A stretch of 34,190 nt of DNA. Origin: Nitrososphaerota archaeon (GTDB taxonomy: Archaea; Thermoproteota; Nitrososphaeria; Nitrososphaerales; Nitrosopumilaceae). Within the stretch, counting starts at the first letter, position 1, and each line of letters begins with the position of its first letter. A program made the translations under genes and the position numbers. The notes beneath the pieces are model-generated. The model made no database searches. It saw only the letters and a program-made list of their open reading frames with translations, and was not told where the DNA came from. This document shows positions 110-6,337 of this stretch, one piece after another. The DNA lies in contig JADFLN010000002.1 of the NCBI GenBank assembly GCA_022564385.1, positions 1 to 34,190 of the forward strand, read 5' to 3'.

Positions 110-1123
110 TTAGAGATTGTCTGTAATCTGTTTGGTAAATTCTGAAGTAGACATATCTCCTCCAATATCCTTGGTTTTAATTCCTGTTTTTACCAAATCA
201 AAGATTGTAGACTCCAACTTTTCTCCCACTTCAATACATTTTGAATCATTATTTTTCACTCCAAGCCAATCACACATCATCTTAATTGATAACAAAAATG
301 ATGAAGGATTTGCAATGTTTTGTCCTGCAATATCAAATGCAGCTCCATGAACTGGTTCAAACAATGCAAAATTATCGCCAATATTTGCAGCTGGTGCCAT
401 TCCTAACCCACCTACAACCTGAGATGATTCATCAGATAAAATATCACCATACAAATTTGTAGTGACTACAACATCGAATTCTTGTGGTTGACGTATTAAA
501 TTCATCGCACAAGCATCCACATACATTTCTTCAAATACAATTTCAGGATAATCTTTTGAAACATCAGTACAAGCTTTTGCAAATAAGCCATCTGTTATTC
601 TCATAACATTTGATTTGTGAACACAGGTAACTTTTTTCTTTAAATTTCTCTGCTTTGCAGTTTCAAATGCATACTTGGCAATTCTTTTTGATGCAGACAC
701 TGAAATTATCCTTAGTGCTACTGCAGAATCTCCTACTCGGAACTCTTTCCCTGTGTAAAGATCCTCAGTATTTTCTCGAACTATCACCATATCAATATCA
801 TCACGTAATGCGGGCATATGGGGATATGATTTTGCAGGTCGGATATTGGCATAAAGATCAAGCATTCTCCTCAATACAACAATAACATCAACTGCACTTT
901 CACCAACAGGAGCTTTCAAACATGCATCAGACTGCTTTATTGCATTAATAGTCTCATCAGGAAGTGCCTTTCCTGTCTGCTCAAGTGCATTATCACCAGC
1001 TGATAATTTTGTGATATCAAATTTCAAATCAAGTTTGTCATGAATGGTATTTAGCACAGAAATTGCAGATTCTGAAATTTCAGGACCAATTCCATCACCA
1101 GTAATTAATGATATTTTGTACAT
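110..1123 (-). CDS. leuB: 3-isopropylmalate dehydrogenase (isocitrate/isopropylmalate dehydrogenase family)
   Basis: GDGIGPE, VRENTEDLY, HKSNV, NLYGDILSDE and FEPVHGAAFDIAG motifs; last gene of the ilvB-ilvH-leuA run. Confidence 0.88.
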   Translation of the reverse strand: MYKISLITGDGIGPEISESAISVLNTIHDKLDLKFDITKLSAGDNALEQTGKALPDETINAIKQSDACLKAPVGESAVDVIVVLRRMLDLYANIRPAKSYPHMPALRDDIDMVIVRENTEDLYTGKEFRVGDSAVALRIISVSASKRIAKYAFETAKQRNLKKKVTCVHKSNVMRITDGLFAKACTDVSKDYPEIVFEEMYVDACAMNLIRQPQEFDVVVTTNLYGDILSDESSQVVGGLGMAPAANIGDNFALFEPVHGAAFDIAGQNIANPSSFLLSIKMMCDWLGVKNNDSKCIEVGEKLESTIFDLVKTGIKTKDIGGDMSTSEFTKQITDNL

Positions 1124-1155: not shown

Positions 1156-2670
1156 TTAGCTTACCTGTTTTTCTTTTAGCATCTTTTTGAGCATGATTCT
1201 ATTAATGCCATCAATCACAGCTTGAACACTTGTAGTTACAATATCCTCTCCAACTGATTTTGCTGAAACTTTATTTCCTTGTGCATCTTCTACACTAATT
1301 GTTACCTCACACAATGCAGATGAACCACCAGAGATAGATGCTAAAGCATAATCTTTAATTCGTATTTCTGAAATTTTACCAGTTATCTTTTGAATTGCAT
1401 TTAATGCTGCATCAACAGGACCTACGCCATGATCAGTTCCAGTAAACTCTTTTCCATCAATGTTTAATTTTACAAAGGCATAAGGTATTGTTCCAATTCC
1501 AGTGGAGACAGAAAATCCAGTTAATTGAACAATTCTTTGGATTCCTTTTTCACCCAAGACATCACTTGCAATAGAAAGTAATTCAACGTCAGTGATTTGT
1601 TTTCCTTGATCACCTAACACTTTGATTTTATCAAGAATTTGTTTTGATTGTTCTTCTGTTGGTTTGACTCCATATTCTGCAAGCATTGCATTCATTCCAT
1701 GAATTCCTGCATGTTTTCCAACACTAAGTCGTCTTTTTCTTCCAACTAATTCAGGACTGATTGGTTCGTATGTAAGAGGATTATTCAACACACCATGAGT
1801 ATGAATTCCAGACTCGTGACCGAATGCATTATCTCCAACAATAGCCTTATTTGGCTGAACTTTGATGCCCATAATTTTTGAAACATAGCGAGATGTATCA
1901 TAGATTAATTCAGATTTGATGTTAGTTTCATATTTTTGTTCATAAGGCAAGCATTGCAATGCCATTGAAAGTTCTTCTAATGATGCATTTCCTGCACGCT
2001 CACCAATTCCATTAATTGTAACATGTGCACAAGATGCTCCTGCATGAATTCCAGATAACGCATTAGCTACTGCCAATCCAAAGTCATTATGACAATGAAC
2101 ACTGATTGGGAGATTTGTTGCATCAATTGCATCACGAGTTATTTCTGCCATATACTCAGGAGTAGAGTAACCCACAGTATCTGGAATATCAATTCTATCA
2201 GCTCCTGCTTTTGCAACTTCACCAAACACCTTTTTCAAGAATTCCCTATCAGTTCTTGTTGCATCCTCAGCTGAGAATTCAACTTGAATGCCTCTTGATT
2301 TTCCATATTCTACTGCTTCAATTGCTTTTTCAAGTACTTGTTCTCTTGTCATTTTGAGTTTATACTCCAAGTGAATATCAGATGTTGCAATGAATGTGTG
2401 AATGGAATTTAATCCAGCATCAATTGCAGCATCAATGTCTCTTTTGTTAGTTCTTGCTAATCCAACAATCTCACAAGATAATCCTTCACTAGTAATCATC
2501 TTTATTCCTTTTAATTCACCATCAGAAACTATTGGAAAGCCTGCTTCAATTACGTCAACGCCAAGTGTATCAAGTTTTTTGGCAATAGAGAGTTTTTGAT
2601 CTGGGGATAAGGATACTCCAATAGTTTGTTCTCCATCTCTCAATGTTGTATCAAATATTCTAATTTTCAT
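1156..2670 (-). CDS. leuA: 2-isopropylmalate synthase (DRE-TIM family with C-terminal allosteric domain); citramalate synthase activity not excluded
   Basis: DTTLRDGEQ, HCHNDFG, GIGERAGNA, HESGIH, and C-terminal GVGPVDA regulatory domain; start overlaps the ilvH stop (ATGA). Confidence 0.85.
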   Translation of the reverse strand: MKIRIFDTTLRDGEQTIGVSLSPDQKLSIAKKLDTLGVDVIEAGFPIVSDGELKGIKMITSEGLSCEIVGLARTNKRDIDAAIDAGLNSIHTFIATSDIHLEYKLKMTREQVLEKAIEAVEYGKSRGIQVEFSAEDATRTDREFLKKVFGEVAKAGADRIDIPDTVGYSTPEYMAEITRDAIDATNLPISVHCHNDFGLAVANALSGIHAGASCAHVTINGIGERAGNASLEELSMALQCLPYEQKYETNIKSELIYDTSRYVSKIMGIKVQPNKAIVGDNAFGHESGIHTHGVLNNPLTYEPISPELVGRKRRLSVGKHAGIHGMNAMLAEYGVKPTEEQSKQILDKIKVLGDQGKQITDVELLSIASDVLGEKGIQRIVQLTGFSVSTGIGTIPYAFVKLNIDGKEFTGTDHGVGPVDAALNAIQKITGKISEIRIKDYALASISGGSSALCEVTISVEDAQGNKVSAKSVGEDIVTTSVQAVIDGINRIMLKKMLKEKQVS

Positions 2671-3149
2671 GATCCACTCCTTTGCAATGCAGCAACACCA
2701 GTCCGTGCCACATCAATAATGCCAAATGGCTTTATCAATTCCTCAAATGCCTGGATTTGATGAGGAGTTGCAGTTAATTCTATCATAAGTGATTTCTTTT
2801 GCACATCATGCACTTTTCCCCCATATGCATTGGCGATCTTGTTAAGTTCCATACTATCATTAGCGTTACTGAGTTTTATCATAAAAAGACAGAGTTCTCT
2901 ATACACTGTCTTGTGCTCGTCTAATTGCTTGACATCTACTGTATCAATCATTTTATCAAGTTGTTTTACAATCTGTGCAATCTGCTTTTCATCAGTATTG
3001 GTAGTAATAGTCATTCTAGAATAATCAGGATTCTCAGTTACCCCTACTGAGATGCTATCAATATTGAAATTTCTAGCTCTAAAAAGATTAGTTATCTTAA
3101 ACAAGACACCTGTTTTGTTTTCAACTAAAATAGAAATAATTGCCCACAT
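2667..3149 (-). CDS. ilvH: acetolactate synthase small (regulatory, ACT) subunit
   Basis: VENKTGVL..F..RNFNIDSI ACT motif, RELCL, ARTG; directly follows ilvB. Confidence 0.93.
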   Translation of the reverse strand: MWAIISILVENKTGVLFKITNLFRARNFNIDSISVGVTENPDYSRMTITTNTDEKQIAQIVKQLDKMIDTVDVKQLDEHKTVYRELCLFMIKLSNANDSMELNKIANAYGGKVHDVQKKSLMIELTATPHQIQAFEELIKPFGIIDVARTGVAALQRSGS

Positions 3150-3158
3150 GACTAATCA

Positions 3159-4871
3159 CTATGATGGTAATACCATATCTGCAAGCGAAGTTCCAGGAGC
3201 TACAAATGGCAATACATCTTCTAAAGGATCAATTGGAATATCGATTACAGTAGCAACATCACTGCTTAATGCAGTTTTAATTGCTTTATCAAGCTCATCC
3301 ATTGATTGTGCCCTAATTCCTTGTGCCCCATATGATTCTGCTAATTTTACATAATCAGGACAATGTTGTTGATCTACACCAATCATTCTTTTGTCATAGA
3401 AAGTTCTTTGCCATTGTGCAACCATTCCTAATGAAAAGTTGTTTAAGATAAACACGATTACTGGAATATCTTCCAATACTGCAGTTGCGAGTGAGTTTTC
3501 AGTCATACTGAAACTGCCATCTCCTGCGATATCCACTACTGGAACATCAGGTCTTGCAACTTTGGCACCAATTGATGCTGGAAATCCCCAACCCATAGTA
3601 CCAAGTCCAGTAGAACTAAAGAAAGTACCAGGTTGAATTACATCATAGAACAATGATGCCCACATTTGGTGTTGTCCTACTTCAGTAGTGATGATTGATT
3701 CAATTGGTAATAGTTCTCTGAGTTTACGTAAAATTTTTGCAGCCCCCATTTCACCTGAATGAATTTTTAAATTCTCTTTCCAATAAGCTTTAGTTTCTTT
3801 AACATGTTTTATCCATGTAGATTCTTCAGTTTTTTTGATTGAACGTTGCAAAAGTAATTTTATCATTATTCGAAGTGACGCTTTAACATCTCCAATAACT
3901 GCAATCTGTGCTGTTTGGTTTTTACCAATTTCTGCAGGATCTATATCCATGTGAATAATTTTGAGTCGCTTTTCAAAGGCTTCAAAGGTTCCAATTGATC
4001 TATCAGAGAATCTAGTGCCTATTGCTAATACACAATCAGCTTCTGTCATCATTTTGTTTGCCTCTGCATGACCATGCATTCCAATTGGACCTAATGACAA
4101 AGGATGATTTTCAGGAAATGCCCCCTTTCCTTTGAAAGTTGTAACTACTGGAAGCATGAGAGTTTCAGCAATAGATTGTAATTCAGCAAAAGCTGATGAG
4201 ATAATAGTTCCGCCACCAGCTAAGATGATTGGTCTTTCTGAATTAAGTAACATATCAACTGCTCTTTCACATGCAACAATATCAGGATCAGTCCAAGGAT
4301 GATAACCTTGAATTTTAAATTCATCAGGAAATTCCATCTCTGCTTCATTTTGTTGAACATCTTTTGGAATGTCAATAAGTACAGGTCCTGGTCGTCCAGT
4401 GCGTGCAATGTAAAATCCTTTTCTTACAGCTTCTGGAACTTCATTAGCTTTTCTTGGTTGAAATGCATATTTTACAACAGGGTTTGACATTCCAATAATA
4501 TCACTTTCTTGGAATGCATCTTTTCCAATCATTGCAACAGGTACTTGACCAGTTACAGCAACCATTGGTGAGGAATCAGCTTGTGCTGTTGCAAGTCCAG
4601 TCAATATGTTAGTGGCACCTGGTCCTGATGTTGCAAAACAAACACCAGGTTTTCTGCTTACTCTACCAAAACCATCAGCCATATGAGCTGCTGATTGTTC
4701 ATGTCTTGCCAAGATATGTCTAATATTACATCTAGCAAATTCGTCATACATTGGAAGATTTGCACCTCCGGGTATACCAAATACTTGCTTGACGCCTTCT
4801 TTTTCCATAGCCGTCATCAAGGCCTTTGCACCTGTCATAGTTTCCATTTTATCTATCAAATCAATCGCCAT
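3159..4871 (-). CDS. ilvB: acetolactate synthase large subunit (ThDP-dependent); alternative start ATG 4847
   Basis: FGIPGG, RHEQ, TSGPGATN, RPGPV, GLGTMGWG, GDGS..NN ThDP motif. Confidence 0.95.
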   Translation of the reverse strand: MAIDLIDKMETMTGAKALMTAMEKEGVKQVFGIPGGANLPMYDEFARCNIRHILARHEQSAAHMADGFGRVSRKPGVCFATSGPGATNILTGLATAQADSSPMVAVTGQVPVAMIGKDAFQESDIIGMSNPVVKYAFQPRKANEVPEAVRKGFYIARTGRPGPVLIDIPKDVQQNEAEMEFPDEFKIQGYHPWTDPDIVACERAVDMLLNSERPIILAGGGTIISSAFAELQSIAETLMLPVVTTFKGKGAFPENHPLSLGPIGMHGHAEANKMMTEADCVLAIGTRFSDRSIGTFEAFEKRLKIIHMDIDPAEIGKNQTAQIAVIGDVKASLRIMIKLLLQRSIKKTEESTWIKHVKETKAYWKENLKIHSGEMGAAKILRKLRELLPIESIITTEVGQHQMWASLFYDVIQPGTFFSSTGLGTMGWGFPASIGAKVARPDVPVVDIAGDGSFSMTENSLATAVLEDIPVIVFILNNFSLGMVAQWQRTFYDKRMIGVDQQHCPDYVKLAESYGAQGIRAQSMDELDKAIKTALSSDVATVIDIPIDPLEDVLPFVAPGTSLADMVLPS

Positions 4872-4903
4872 AATTTTAATGAAGTTAAAAATTTGAGCAC
4901 ACT

Positions 4904-4963
4904 TTACAGTAAAACAACAACTTGCAAATTCTTGCTAATTGGTCCAGTTACTTTTATGCTCAT
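4904..4963 (-). CDS. putative ilv/leu leader peptide MSIKVTGPISKNLQVVVLL (19 aa)
   Basis: Read directly: ATG at 4963, TAA at 4906-4904; 9 of 19 codons are Ile/Val/Leu, ending TTG CAA GTT GTT GTT TTA CTG; stop lies 32 nt before the ilvB ATG 4871; too short for the ORF track. Confidence 0.7.
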   Translation of the reverse strand: MSIKVTGPISKNLQVVVLL

Positions 4964-4991
4964 TGAAATCAAAAATAAAACCAATCAATAA

Positions 4992-4999
4992 TTAATAAA
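4992..4999 (-). promoter_or_regulatory. TATA box for the leader-ilvB transcript
   Basis: TTTATTAA on the minus strand ending 29 nt upstream of the leader ATG, the spacing expected for a near-leaderless archaeal transcript. Confidence 0.55.
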
Positions 5000-5073
5000 G
5001 ATTACCAGAAAAATAATCAGGATTTAATCATTTTCGAGTCAGAAGACTTAAACTGATAATTTACATATTTGAA

Positions 5074-5487
5074 ATGACTATATTGTTAGATCGTGAAGAA
5101 ATCATCAAAATTATTGAAACACTATTTGAAGCAGGAGTAACAAAAGATCTAACACAACTAAAAGACATACATCTTGATGATCCTAGATTTTCTAGCTTTA
5201 GTGATTTGCCACCATATGATCTTAAGGATTATAAAACTACAATAGAATTAGAAGAATTAAAATTTATTAGTATTTCAGACTATAGTTATGAAATTAAAAA
5301 TCTAAAAATTAGTATTTTTGGAGATGCTGCAATTGTGGCAATGGAGTTAATTCAACAAGGAATTATAATAGACAATAAAGCATTCACTGGTGAACACATG
5401 AAAATCAAAGGAAGGGCAACATTTGTTTTGATAAAACAACCAACATGGAAAATTGCACACATTCATCTCTCAAAGATAGAGGGATAG
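5074..5487 (+). CDS. SnoaL/NTF2-like fold protein
   Basis: C-terminal pattern IFGDAAIV...GRATFVL...WKIAHIHLS is typical of SnoaL-like proteins. Confidence 0.75.
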   Translation: MTILLDREEIIKIIETLFEAGVTKDLTQLKDIHLDDPRFSSFSDLPPYDLKDYKTTIELEELKFISISDYSYEIKNLKISIFGDAAIVAMELIQQGIIIDNKAFTGEHMKIKGRATFVLIKQPTWKIAHIHLSKIEG

Positions 5488-5488
5488 A

Positions 5489-6337
5489 TTATTTCTTAGT
5501 TGTATTAGGTTTGTTTTGATTAGGTTTGTTTTGATTAGGTTTGTTTTTTGGACCTTCACTAACTAGTTTTTTGTAATAGGCATATGCTTGATCAACAGTA
5601 GAATTTCCATGAACTATGGTTCTAACTGCTTTAATCATTTCAACAGGATGTTCTGATTGCCAGATATTTCTCCCCATGTCAACTCCAACGGCACCACCTT
5701 TGATTGAGTTGTATGTTAATTGTAATGCATCACGTTCTGGGATTTTTTTTCCTCCTGCAACAATAATTGGAACAGGACATGATTGAACAACTTTTTCAAA
5801 ATTTTCACAATAATATGTTTTAACAATATGTGCCCCTTGCTCAGCTGCAATTCTGCATGCCAAGGAAAGATATCTCGCATCTTTACCCAATTCTTTTCCA
5901 ACTGCAGTTACAGCCAATACAGGAATTCCATATTTTTCGGCTTTACTTACTAATTTTCCAAGATTCACAATAGTTTGATGTTCATATTTTGAGCCAACAA
6001 AAATAGACATTGCAAGTGCACTTGCATTGAGTCTAATTGCATCTTGAATTGAAACAGTTATTTCTTCTTGAGATAAATCCTCACCAATAATACTTGAACC
6101 GCCAGAGACTCTCAACACCATTGGGGTGTTAGTAGTTGCAGGAACACATGTTCTCTGAATGCCTCTTGTAACCATCAAAGAGTCACAATATTTCAAGAGA
6201 GGTGCAATTACTTTTTTTGGATTCTCTAATTTTTCAGTCGGGCCAAGGAAATATCCATGATCAACTGCTAACATTAATGCACGATTATCTTGTGGTTTAA
6301 TGATTTGTGAGAGTCTATTTTTTAATCCCCAATCCAA
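5489..6337 (-). CDS. lsrF: LsrF-like thiolase / DhnA-type class I aldolase family protein
   Basis: MDWGLKNRL, LAVDHGYFLGP, GAHIVKTYY (Schiff-base Lys), AGGKK, GVDMGRNIWQ; TTG start. Confidence 0.8.
   Translation of the reverse strand: MDWGLKNRLSQIIKPQDNRALMLAVDHGYFLGPTEKLENPKKVIAPLLKYCDSLMVTRGIQRTCVPATTNTPMVLRVSGGSSIIGEDLSQEEITVSIQDAIRLNASALAMSIFVGSKYEHQTIVNLGKLVSKAEKYGIPVLAVTAVGKELGKDARYLSLACRIAAEQGAHIVKTYYCENFEKVVQSCPVPIIVAGGKKIPERDALQLTYNSIKGGAVGVDMGRNIWQSEHPVEMIKAVRTIVHGNSTVDQAYAYYKKLVSEGPKNKPNQNKPNQNKPNTTKK
5504..5548. repeat. 15-bp tandem repeat x3 (ATTAGGTTTGTTTTG) encoding the NKPNQ tail of the LsrF-like protein
   Basis: Copies at 5504, 5519 and 5534 (last has one mismatch). Confidence 0.92.

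What the first reader, a model, noticed from the sequence alone, without database searches (positions are those of the whole stretch)
4872..4999. Candidate Ile/Val/Leu-sensing leader peptide (attenuator-like system) ahead of an archaeal ilvB-ilvH-leuA-leuB operon
Seen: on the minus strand a TATA box (4999-4992) is followed 29 nt later by a 19-codon ORF, MSIKVTGPISKNLQVVVLL*. Six of its last seven codons are Leu/Val (TTG CAA GTT GTT GTT TTA CTG) and 9 of 19 overall are branched-chain residues, the products of the downstream operon. Established: bacterial ilvBN, ilvGMEDA and leu operons use such control-codon leader peptides; archaea couple transcription and translation and terminate at U-tracts via FttA/aCPSF1. 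To my knowledge leader-peptide control of BCAA synthesis is not established in Nitrososphaerota. Inference: ribosome stalling on the VVVLL run under BCAA limitation switches ilvB expression on.
Basis: partly seen in the sequence, partly recalled or inferred. Interest (0 to 1): 0.9.

Follow-up and report, generated by a model that had tools for sequence, protein, structure and literature searches.

The report
Archaeal leucine/valine-sensing leader peptide
A tiny 19-codon reading frame ending in leucine and valine codons sits just ahead of the genes that make these amino acids in this archaeon and most of its close relatives, and likely lets the ribosome gauge their supply and switch the genes on when they run short, a control familiar from bacteria that I did not find described in archaea.

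Summary
Real and conserved. The 19-codon ORF (4963-4904, minus strand) lies 36 nt behind a TATA box, ahead of ilvB-ilvH-leuA-leuB. A like ORF precedes ilvB in 132 of 170 loci across the class, against about 3% in controls; a hold-out family had none (0 of 14). It evolves like a translated frame: the first ATG after the box is in frame in 114 of 120, and changes are biased to synonymous. The tail is 50% Leu, 21% Val, 9% Ile and 1% Phe, and favours the rare codon CTG. So it is a Leu/Val gauge; Ile is minor. A helix ends shortly after the stop, often before a short U-run. No anti-Shine-Dalgarno switch or antiterminator was found. Best model (inferred): a stalled ribosome blocks hairpin/aCPSF1 termination. 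Sensing is about 75% likely, and this output step about 50%. The A/T box at 4880-4873 is probably a second, basal promoter. Ten literature searches found no archaeal report. This scan noted similar leaders before on other archaeal DNA, including another ammonia oxidiser. No experiment has tested it.

The parts
4992..5006 (-). Upstream promoter P1: BRE-like GGTAATC plus TATA box TTTATTAA (4999-4992); transcription start predicted near 4970
   Evidence: Sequence; TATA-like box 29-40 nt before the uORF start in 124 of 132 loci; genome-wide box-to-ATG peak at 29-33 nt
4904..4963 (-). Leader ORF, 19 codons, MSIKVTGPISKNLQVVVLL*
4907..4927 (-). Putative control codons L-Q-V-V-V-L-L, ending in the rare Leu codon CTG
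   Evidence: CTG is 4.4% of Leu codons in this genome and 67 of 104 last codons in distinct blocks
4908..4952 (-). Predicted inner helix pairing the body of the leader ORF with the control codons
   Evidence: Fold; native pairing beats foreign pairing in 28 of 33 genera
4955..4962 (-). 5' arm of the predicted closing helix (covers the uORF start codon)
   Evidence: 5 of 7 pairs show two-sided changes, 62.8% of cells paired, in a 50-row alignment
4894..4901 (-). 3' arm of the predicted closing helix, just after the stop codon
4887..4891 (-). U5 run two bases after the closing helix (candidate pause, termination or cleavage signal)
   Evidence: Sequence; first U-run ends 9-22 nt after the stop in 20 of 33 genera vs 29% in shuffles, window chosen after looking
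4873..4880 (-). Second A/T box P2 (ATTAAAAT), probable basal promoter for leaderless ilvB mRNA
   Evidence: Fixed spacing of about 33 nt to the ilvB ATG in many genera, kept in uORF-less genera; no compensatory change in its palindrome, 0 of 8 pairs
3159..4847 (-). ilvB, acetolactate synthase large subunit (longest ORF begins at 4871; 4847 is the likelier start)
   Evidence: TIGR00118 over cut-off
2667..3149 (-). ilvH/ilvN, acetolactate synthase small subunit
   Evidence: TIGR00119 and PRK11895 over cut-off
1156..2670 (-). leuA, 2-isopropylmalate synthase
   Evidence: PRK00915.1-2 and TIGR02090 over cut-off
110..1123 (-). leuB-type isopropylmalate/isohomocitrate dehydrogenase
   Evidence: TIGR02088 409.4 bits vs cut-off 409.8

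Best explanation
A conserved 19-codon ORF ending in Leu/Val codons heads the ilvB-ilvH-leuA-leuB operon and likely works as a ribosome-read gauge: when charged Leu- or Val-tRNA is scarce the ribosome would stall on the last codons, which would keep the transcript from being terminated before ilvB. Shown here: the ORF, its promoter spacing, selection on its frame and codons, and a predicted helix ending soon after the stop. Inferred: with ample Leu/Val the ribosome finishes and leaves, the vacated leader folds (in this genome one stem-loop closed by 4962-4955 with 4901-4894), and RNA polymerase is released or the RNA is cut at the short U-run with help from aCPSF1/FttA. A stalled ribosome would hold the helix open and cover the U-rich control codons, which lie where FttA would grip if polymerase paused at the U-run. 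Promoter P2 would supply basal, leader-free ilvB mRNA. I put the sensing step at about 0.75 and sensing plus this termination output at about 0.5.
For: Conservation in 132 of 170 loci vs about 3% in three controls, on both sides of the midpoint root of an ilvB tree of 85 proteins. First ATG after the box in frame with the stop in 114 of 120, over 15 different lengths. Column entropy 1.46/0.77/1.64 bits at codon positions 1/2/3. Synonymous events 40 of 81 vs 0.32 expected, 10 of them first-position Leu swaps; shifted frames 13 of 94 and 17 of 84. Tail is 50% Leu, 21% Val, 1% Phe vs 7%, 9%, 4% in ilvB; CTG is 50% of tail Leu codons vs 7% in ilvB. The operon holds both committed steps, AHAS and IPMS. 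A stop-proximal hairpin beats the shuffle mean in 46 of 54 loci and loses pairing as the modelled ribosome reaches the last three codons (0.76 free, 0.49 at -3, 0.18 at -1; 26 genera, partly by construction). aCPSF1 is encoded. FttA contacts RNA from -1 to -36 and prefers U at -23 and -30 to -36 (PMC11616081, passages). In 2 of 8 runs laid, an RNA-library contig of a relative joins the leader to ilvB and ends inside the start of the uORF (weak hint).
Against: No experiment. U-runs in the spacer are only 1-6 long and absent in several genera. In this genus the local stop hairpin is weak (-0.7 to -1.2 kcal/mol), and the whole-leader fold has z = -1.6 (12 of 200 shuffles as good). The helices differ between genera, and in one 33-row alignment only 1 of 16 pairs has a two-sided change. 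A ribosome stalled at codons -8 to -5, which hold the most constant Leu-Leu-Val, leaves the stop hairpin formed in the model. The inner helix would hide the control codons from FttA after release. G/C-rich codons such as CTG may be kept for pairing, not rarity. In Streptomyces coelicolor, changing similar ilvB leader codons had no effect (as cited in PMC1262725 section 7). P2 could carry most transcription. Family f11 lacks the leader (0 of 14).
Confidence: 0.5

Rival explanations
1. Same Leu/Val sensing, but the output is translational or acts on mRNA stability: ribosome position changes access to the ilvB ribosome-binding site or to a nuclease, and polarity follows.
For: The spacer from stop to ilvB start is short (26-69 nt) and often carries a GGTGA-type site close behind the hairpin. 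A tested precedent exists in mycobacterial polycysteine leaders (10.1101/834739, passages). A few genera show 1-3 kcal/mol shifts.
Against: Mean cost to open the ilvB binding site stays at 4.2-4.8 kcal/mol at every modelled ribosome position over 121 leaders. Control codons pair with their own SD no better than with foreign ones (13 of 33 genera) or shuffles (0 of 33 under quantile 0.1).
Confidence: 0.2
2. Nascent-peptide arrest: free Leu/Val in excess stalls the ribosome at the stop of an LL(L)V(D/E)LxL-type peptide and so shuts ilvB off, as TnaC or the fungal arginine attenuator peptide respond to free amino acid (recalled).
For: Run sits directly before the stop; an LLVDL-like motif recurs in family f1, with D/E in 52 of 104 blocks at position -4.
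Against: The order of residues differs freely among families (ALIVLLIVV, LIVLLSPLI, VPLLVLLL) and the N-terminal part is not conserved. Composition matches the pathway products, and codon choice is biased.
Confidence: 0.1
3. The leader is translated and structured but not codon-sensing: it couples polymerase to a ribosome or is a site for a protein regulator, and P2 with a DNA-binding factor does the regulation.
For: The S. coelicolor ilvB and leuA leaders behaved this way (PMC1262725, passages). P2 is highly conserved and partly palindromic.
Against: It does not explain a Leu/Val tail kept across at least seven families with unrelated RNA sequences, nor the Phe depletion (11 seen vs 33 expected). 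Nine f1 genera (g6, g9, g11, g12, g18, g19 aside, g20, g25, g26) and the distant families show the uORF; most of these have no P2 box.
Confidence: 0.12
4. The product is a small hydrophobic peptide acting in trans (membrane or AHAS partner), or the ORF is a chance or relic frame.
For: Hydrophobic C-terminus; T-rich DNA yields such tails in 0.44% of small ORFs.
Against: The hydrophobic block is only about 8 residues, broken by D/E, and lacks Phe, Met, Ala and Trp. Length varies from 12 to 30 codons. Conservation and codon-level selection exclude chance.
Confidence: 0.05

Closest known systems
Actinobacterial ilvB leader-peptide attenuators (M. tuberculosis ilvB1 uORF with LVVI codons, PMC13236596 passages; Corynebacterium/Streptomyces candidates, PMC1262725 section 7)
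   Same: Short ORF with branched-chain codons near its end, directly ahead of ilvB; codons overlap or abut a hairpin followed by U residues.
   Different: Archaeal TATA/BRE promoter; Leu-dominated; weak, variable hairpin; U-run 1-6; no antiterminator found; no sequence likeness tested or seen; a second promoter lies between leader and ilvB in many genera.
Enterobacterial ivbL, ilvL and leuL classical attenuators (recalled, textbook)
   Same: Cognate control codons, rare Leu codon use, a helix pairing the ORF body with the control codons.
   Different: No spaced 2:3 antiterminator and 3:4 terminator; the hairpin begins at or overlaps the stop; spacer to the first gene is only 26-69 nt.
Mycobacterial polycysteine leaderless sORF attenuators (10.1101/834739, passages)
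   Same: Leaderless or near-leaderless sORF, cognate run at the C-terminus, first in the biosynthetic operon.
   Different: There the run pairs with the downstream SD; here that pairing was tested and not found.
E. coli tnaC / Rho-occlusion leaders (recalled; mentioned in PMC1262725)
   Same: Proposed logic: a stalled ribosome shields RNA from a termination factor (FttA in place of Rho).
   Different: TnaC senses free Trp through the nascent chain for a catabolic operon; here codon composition points to tRNA charging.
Met-Trp minigene before trpY in Methanothermobacter (Xie and Reeve 2005; recalled, paper not held)
   Same: A cognate-codon upstream frame in an archaeon, as I recall proposed to link expression to Trp supply.
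   Different: Two codons before a repressor gene, not a 12-30 codon structured leader before the biosynthetic operon. Not checked.

Membership tests
Ribosome-mediated leader-peptide attenuators (broad sense) | Short ORF at the head of the biosynthetic transcript | tested here: met
   TATA-like box 29-40 nt before the start in 124 of 132 loci; start site itself not mapped
Ribosome-mediated leader-peptide attenuators (broad sense) | ORF is under selection as a translated frame | tested here: met
   Frame test 114 of 120, codon periodicity, synonymous excess
Ribosome-mediated leader-peptide attenuators (broad sense) | Run of codons for the pathway's end products | tested here: met
   Leu 50%, Val 21% of the last 8 codons; Ile 9%, not enriched. 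Loci were selected for at least 5 of 8 I/L/V, so the split among residues is the informative part
Ribosome-mediated leader-peptide attenuators (broad sense) | Expression depends on the control codons and on amino-acid supply | not testable with these tools
   Needs reporters or Ribo-seq
Classical transcription attenuator (E. coli trp/ilv, M. tuberculosis ilvB1) | Intrinsic terminator: stable hairpin plus long U-tract | tested here: inconclusive
   Hairpin stronger than shuffle mean in 46 of 54, than all 6 shuffles in 28 of 54; U-run 1-6; archaeal terminators need no hairpin (PMC7515710, passages)
Classical transcription attenuator (E. coli trp/ilv, M. tuberculosis ilvB1) | Mutually exclusive antiterminator downstream of the control codons | tested here: not met
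   Control or body segments pair with the post-stop segment no better than foreign ones (17 and 13 of 33 genera)
Translational attenuator (polycysteine sORFs, LEU element) | Control codons pair with the downstream Shine-Dalgarno site | tested here: not met
Rfam leader/attenuator families | Match to a covariance model | tested here: not met
   Only sub-threshold snoRNA/miRNA hits in 4700-5200; 0 hits at gathering score in 17 loci
aCPSF1/FttA-dependent terminator | Factor present, accessible U-rich RNA, mapped 3' end | tested here: inconclusive
   Gene present; geometry compatible; no 3' end data

The most novel reading that the evidence does not exclude
Nitrososphaeria carry an ancestral, class-wide leader-peptide attenuator in which a ribosome stalled on Leu/Val codons excludes aCPSF1/FttA from the nascent RNA. 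It would be a natural gene switch built on archaeal transcription-translation coupling and a cleavage-type terminator related to eukaryotic CPSF73, with no bacterial antiterminator.
Probability: 0.35. Interest if true: 0.9.

Novelty: new variant of a known kind. Interest (0 to 1): 0.75.

Why it matters
Leader-peptide control of amino-acid synthesis is textbook in bacteria, but I found no description for archaea in ten searches of the held library (most subscription papers are not held). A 2025 commentary calls direct evidence for archaeal transcription-translation coupling scarce (PMC13681488, passages), and the FttA structure paper leaves ribosome/FttA exclusion as a hypothesis (PMC11616081). 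This roughly 130-nt element is a compact natural test of both. It is present in ammonia-oxidising archaea, including the cultured Ca. Nitrosotalea devanaterra (L175), and it comes with natural loss variants as controls.

Tried and rejected
Anti-SD switch: no signal. Classical antiterminator: not found. RNAalifold on 33 leaders kept only a 5-bp core with no two-sided change. Rfam: nothing. No second copy of the leader DNA in the genome, only matches of 30 nt or less. Other cognate leaders in this genome: the first scan missed its own positive control and was discarded. The second ranked the ilvB leader 7th of 220 and first of the Leu/Val class; I recognised no other cognate leader in the top 40, judged by eye without annotation. 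No such leader was seen by eye before ilvC, ilvD, leuC or trpE; hisG was not found in this 91%-complete genome. Wider spread with the same rule: family f11 0 of 14; other Thermoproteota 3 of 40, two of them inside an upstream gene; 7 euryarchaeal records 0 of 7. The rule needs at least 10 codons and looks only before ilvB, so shorter leaders or leaders before leuA would be missed. RNA runs: all 8 laid were contigs, mostly of relatives, so they show no start, end or level. X5 and X6 cross the whole intergenic region (probably DNA). X7, X10, X13 and X14 do not reach the leader; X10 stops at 4846, next to the predicted P2 start, as a single contig. Three papers asked for by id were not held. No supplements were read; the uORF tables of the M. 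mazei and Haloferax Ribo-seq papers could bear on the novelty claim.

Full report
Observation. The minus strand carries GGTAATC-TTTATTAA (5006-4992), an ATG at 4963 and the 19-codon ORF MSIKVTGPISKNLQVVVLL ending at 4904. Downstream lie ilvB, ilvH, leuA and a leuB-type gene. Within one T-rich genome such a tail is not extraordinary: 69 of 15,537 small ORFs have it. The question is settled by relatives.

Sampling. I searched 151 genomes of the family, 201 of the class, 17 of family f11 and 161 of the phylum with the ilvB protein. The main set is 170 loci: 130 of the 143 genomes with a match (13 not fetched, two of them lacking the 5' end), 5 more of the window's genus, 21 of other families of the order and 14 of other orders of the class. 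The rule was set after I had seen these sequences: an ORF of 10-30 codons, stop 30-90 nt before ilvB, at least 5 of the last 8 codons I/L/V. It is met in 132 of 170 loci: 112 of 135 in the family, 7 of 21 in the rest of the order, 13 of 14 in other orders. Controls gave 108 of 3,400 dinucleotide shuffles, 3 of 170 reverse complements and 28 of 981 upstream regions of the genome's own ORFs. Kin are not independent, but positives fall in seven families and on both sides of the midpoint root of an 85-protein ilvB tree (FastTree, at most two rows per genus and state). The tree has 20 negative clades under the strict rule. Several still have a TATA-anchored ORF ending in FLLL, TLLVLS or the like, while genera g2, g5, g8, g13 and g19 show none (the one g19 hit has no TATA box). 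Hold-outs went against a wider spread: f11 0 of 14, other Thermoproteota 3 of 40 (two inside an upstream gene), euryarchaeal records 0 of 7. Named family records gave 9 of 13, including Ca. Nitrosotalea devanaterra, but may overlap the main set.

Is it translated? A TATA-like box lies 29-40 nt before the start in 124 of 132 (79 of them at 36-38 nt; 118 ATG, 6 TTG; 12-30 codons). The first ATG after the box, taken in any frame, is in frame with the stop in 114 of 120, across 15 lengths. In 104 distinct 8-codon tails, entropy is 1.46, 0.77 and 1.64 bits at codon positions 1, 2 and 3. Single-base differences within genera are synonymous in 40 of 81 cases against 0.32 expected (nominal p 0.001), and in 13 of 94 and 17 of 84 in the shifted frames. 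Selecting for I/L/V tails favours this result somewhat. Translation is inferred from these patterns; no footprint or peptide data were available.

What is sensed? Weighted by genus, the last 8 codons are 50% Leu, 21% Val, 9% Ile, 1% Phe and 1% Met, against 7%, 9%, 8%, 4% and 4% in ilvB. Phe codons number 11 where 33 are expected from base composition. So the tail is not merely U-rich or hydrophobic, and Ile is not enriched (5% in the family, 15% elsewhere). CTG makes up 50% of tail Leu codons against 7% in ilvB and 4.4% genome-wide. This fits tRNA-charging control, although RNA pairing may also favour it. The operon holds both committed steps, AHAS and isopropylmalate synthase; ilvC, ilvD and leuC lie elsewhere and show no such leader by eye.

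RNA anatomy. In this genome the leader folds into one stem-loop (-19.4 kcal/mol, z -1.6, 12 of 200 shuffles as good), closed by 4962-4955 with 4901-4894 and followed by AA and U5. Pairing of native against foreign segments over 33 genera supports an inner helix between ORF body and control codons (28 of 33), a helix of the last codons with the post-stop segment (24 of 33) and, strongly in g1, g3 and g17, the start region with the post-stop segment (22 of 33 overall). It does not support pairing of control codons with the ilvB SD (13 of 33) or with the post-stop segment (17 of 33). A hairpin starting within -10 to +4 nt of the stop beats the shuffle mean in 46 of 54 loci and all six shuffles in 28; in distant families it is often strong (-12 to -20 kcal/mol) and unrelated in sequence. 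Named-structure counts gave 92.9% of cells paired but one two-sided pair of 16 in a 33-row set, and 5 of 7 two-sided pairs with 62.8% paired for the closing helix in a 50-row set. Walking a ribosome footprint along 121 distinct leaders changed the cost of opening the ilvB binding site only from 4.2 to 4.8 kcal/mol, whereas the stop hairpin fell from 0.76 to 0.49, 0.18 and 0.04 with the A site at -3, -1 and the stop (partly by construction). The longest U-run in the spacer is 1-6; the first run of three or more ends 9-22 nt after the stop in 20 of 33 genera against 29% in shuffles, with the window picked after looking.

A second promoter. ATTAAAAT at 4880-4873 lies 33 nt before ATG 4847, close to the genome-wide box-to-ATG peak of 29-33 nt. 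It keeps that spacing in many genera, including loci of uORF-less ones, and is missing from g6, g9, g11, g12, g18, g20, g25, g26 and the distant families, which have the uORF promoter only. Its palindrome shows no compensatory change. I read it as a basal promoter giving leaderless ilvB mRNA. That is inferred from spacing alone.

Transcripts. Nineteen runs hold the stretch or part of it, all as contigs; I laid 8. In X8 a contig of a relative covers 4672-4950 with no cover from there to about 5450. In X11 a contig runs 74 letters past 4881 into a leader like that of genus g22, judged by eye. Both join leader to ilvB and end about 10 nt inside the uORF, while X5 and X6 go straight on. This is a weak hint that P1 is used and read through; four other runs do not reach the leader.

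Mechanism. Best model: sufficiency lets the ribosome leave, the leader folds, and polymerase terminates or the RNA is cut at the U-run; limitation stalls the ribosome on the last codons, holding the helix open and shielding the RNA. aCPSF1 is encoded, a thaumarchaeal orthologue terminates transcription in a heterologous host (PMC7515710, passages), and FttA grips positions -23 to -36 of the nascent RNA (PMC11616081, passages), which would be the control codons if polymerase sat at the U-run. All of this is inference. Against it: weak and variable terminator signals, early control codons that do not reach the hairpin, the inner helix hiding those codons, and the S. coelicolor precedent in which similar codons did not matter (PMC1262725 section 7).

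Comparison and novelty. It works like the actinobacterial ilvB attenuator (PMC13236596, passages) and resembles leaderless polycysteine sORFs (10.1101/834739, passages), but fails the antiterminator and anti-SD tests, so I do not file it under either. Rfam has no match. Ten searches found no archaeal case (listings and abstracts). Passages of two reviews (PMC8116511; PMC13675443), two archaeal Ribo-seq papers (PMC11456600; PMC10117724), PMC6393860 and a marine small-protein preprint describe none; the Ribo-seq papers mention uORFs only in general. I recall a Met-Trp minigene before trpY in Methanothermobacter as a partial precedent but could not retrieve the paper. Earlier notes of this scan report similar leaders in another ammonia oxidiser, Bathyarchaeia, Methanomassiliicoccales and haloarchaea; these are unchecked and not counted as support.

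Verdict. A real, selected, previously unannotated leader ORF; a Leu/Val gauge at about 0.75; termination output at about 0.5. New variant of a known kind; interest 0.75.

Noticed in passing
L138, L139, L142 (family f2, genus g28), 160-20 nt before ilvB: The TATA-anchored upstream ORF is longer and Met-rich (for example YCSMMMMVGIII, YCMMRMMMVCMI) instead of ending in Leu/Val; it may be a drifted leader or sense another signal.
   Followed up: no
L146-L150 (family f3, genus g29): Upstream ORFs of about 25 codons with two conserved Cys and a terminal FLLL/LLL; most miss the strict rule but look like the same element reduced to Leu only.
   Followed up: partly
G000:C128:4002-5675 (L253): ilvD is interrupted by one in-frame TAG, giving frames of 443 and 113 aa; assembly error or broken gene not resolved.
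   Followed up: no
G000:C31:12196-15133 (L254): An archaeal-type leuC-like large and small subunit pair is followed at once by a second, more distant large-subunit gene.
   Followed up: no
window 5047-5487 (+): A divergent promoter (CTTAAACT at 5047-5054) and a 137-aa ORF with no NCBIfam match at E 1e-10 sit back to back with P1 in many relatives.
   Followed up: no
window 5489-5560 (-): The aldolase/thiolase-like gene ends in a short repeated tail (NKPNQNKPNQNKPN) that differs in length in relatives' contigs.
   Followed up: no
L258-L271 (family f11); genera g2, g5, g8, g13, g19: Lineages without the leader mostly keep a single A/T box about 33 nt before ilvB; g5 genomes are small (0.8-0.9 Mb) and g2/g13 ilvB genes are GC-rich. 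A link to lifestyle was not tested.
   Followed up: partly
L272 (family f32, outside the class): An upstream ORF ending NVVILK followed by a strong hairpin precedes ilvB; a possible independent case.
   Followed up: no
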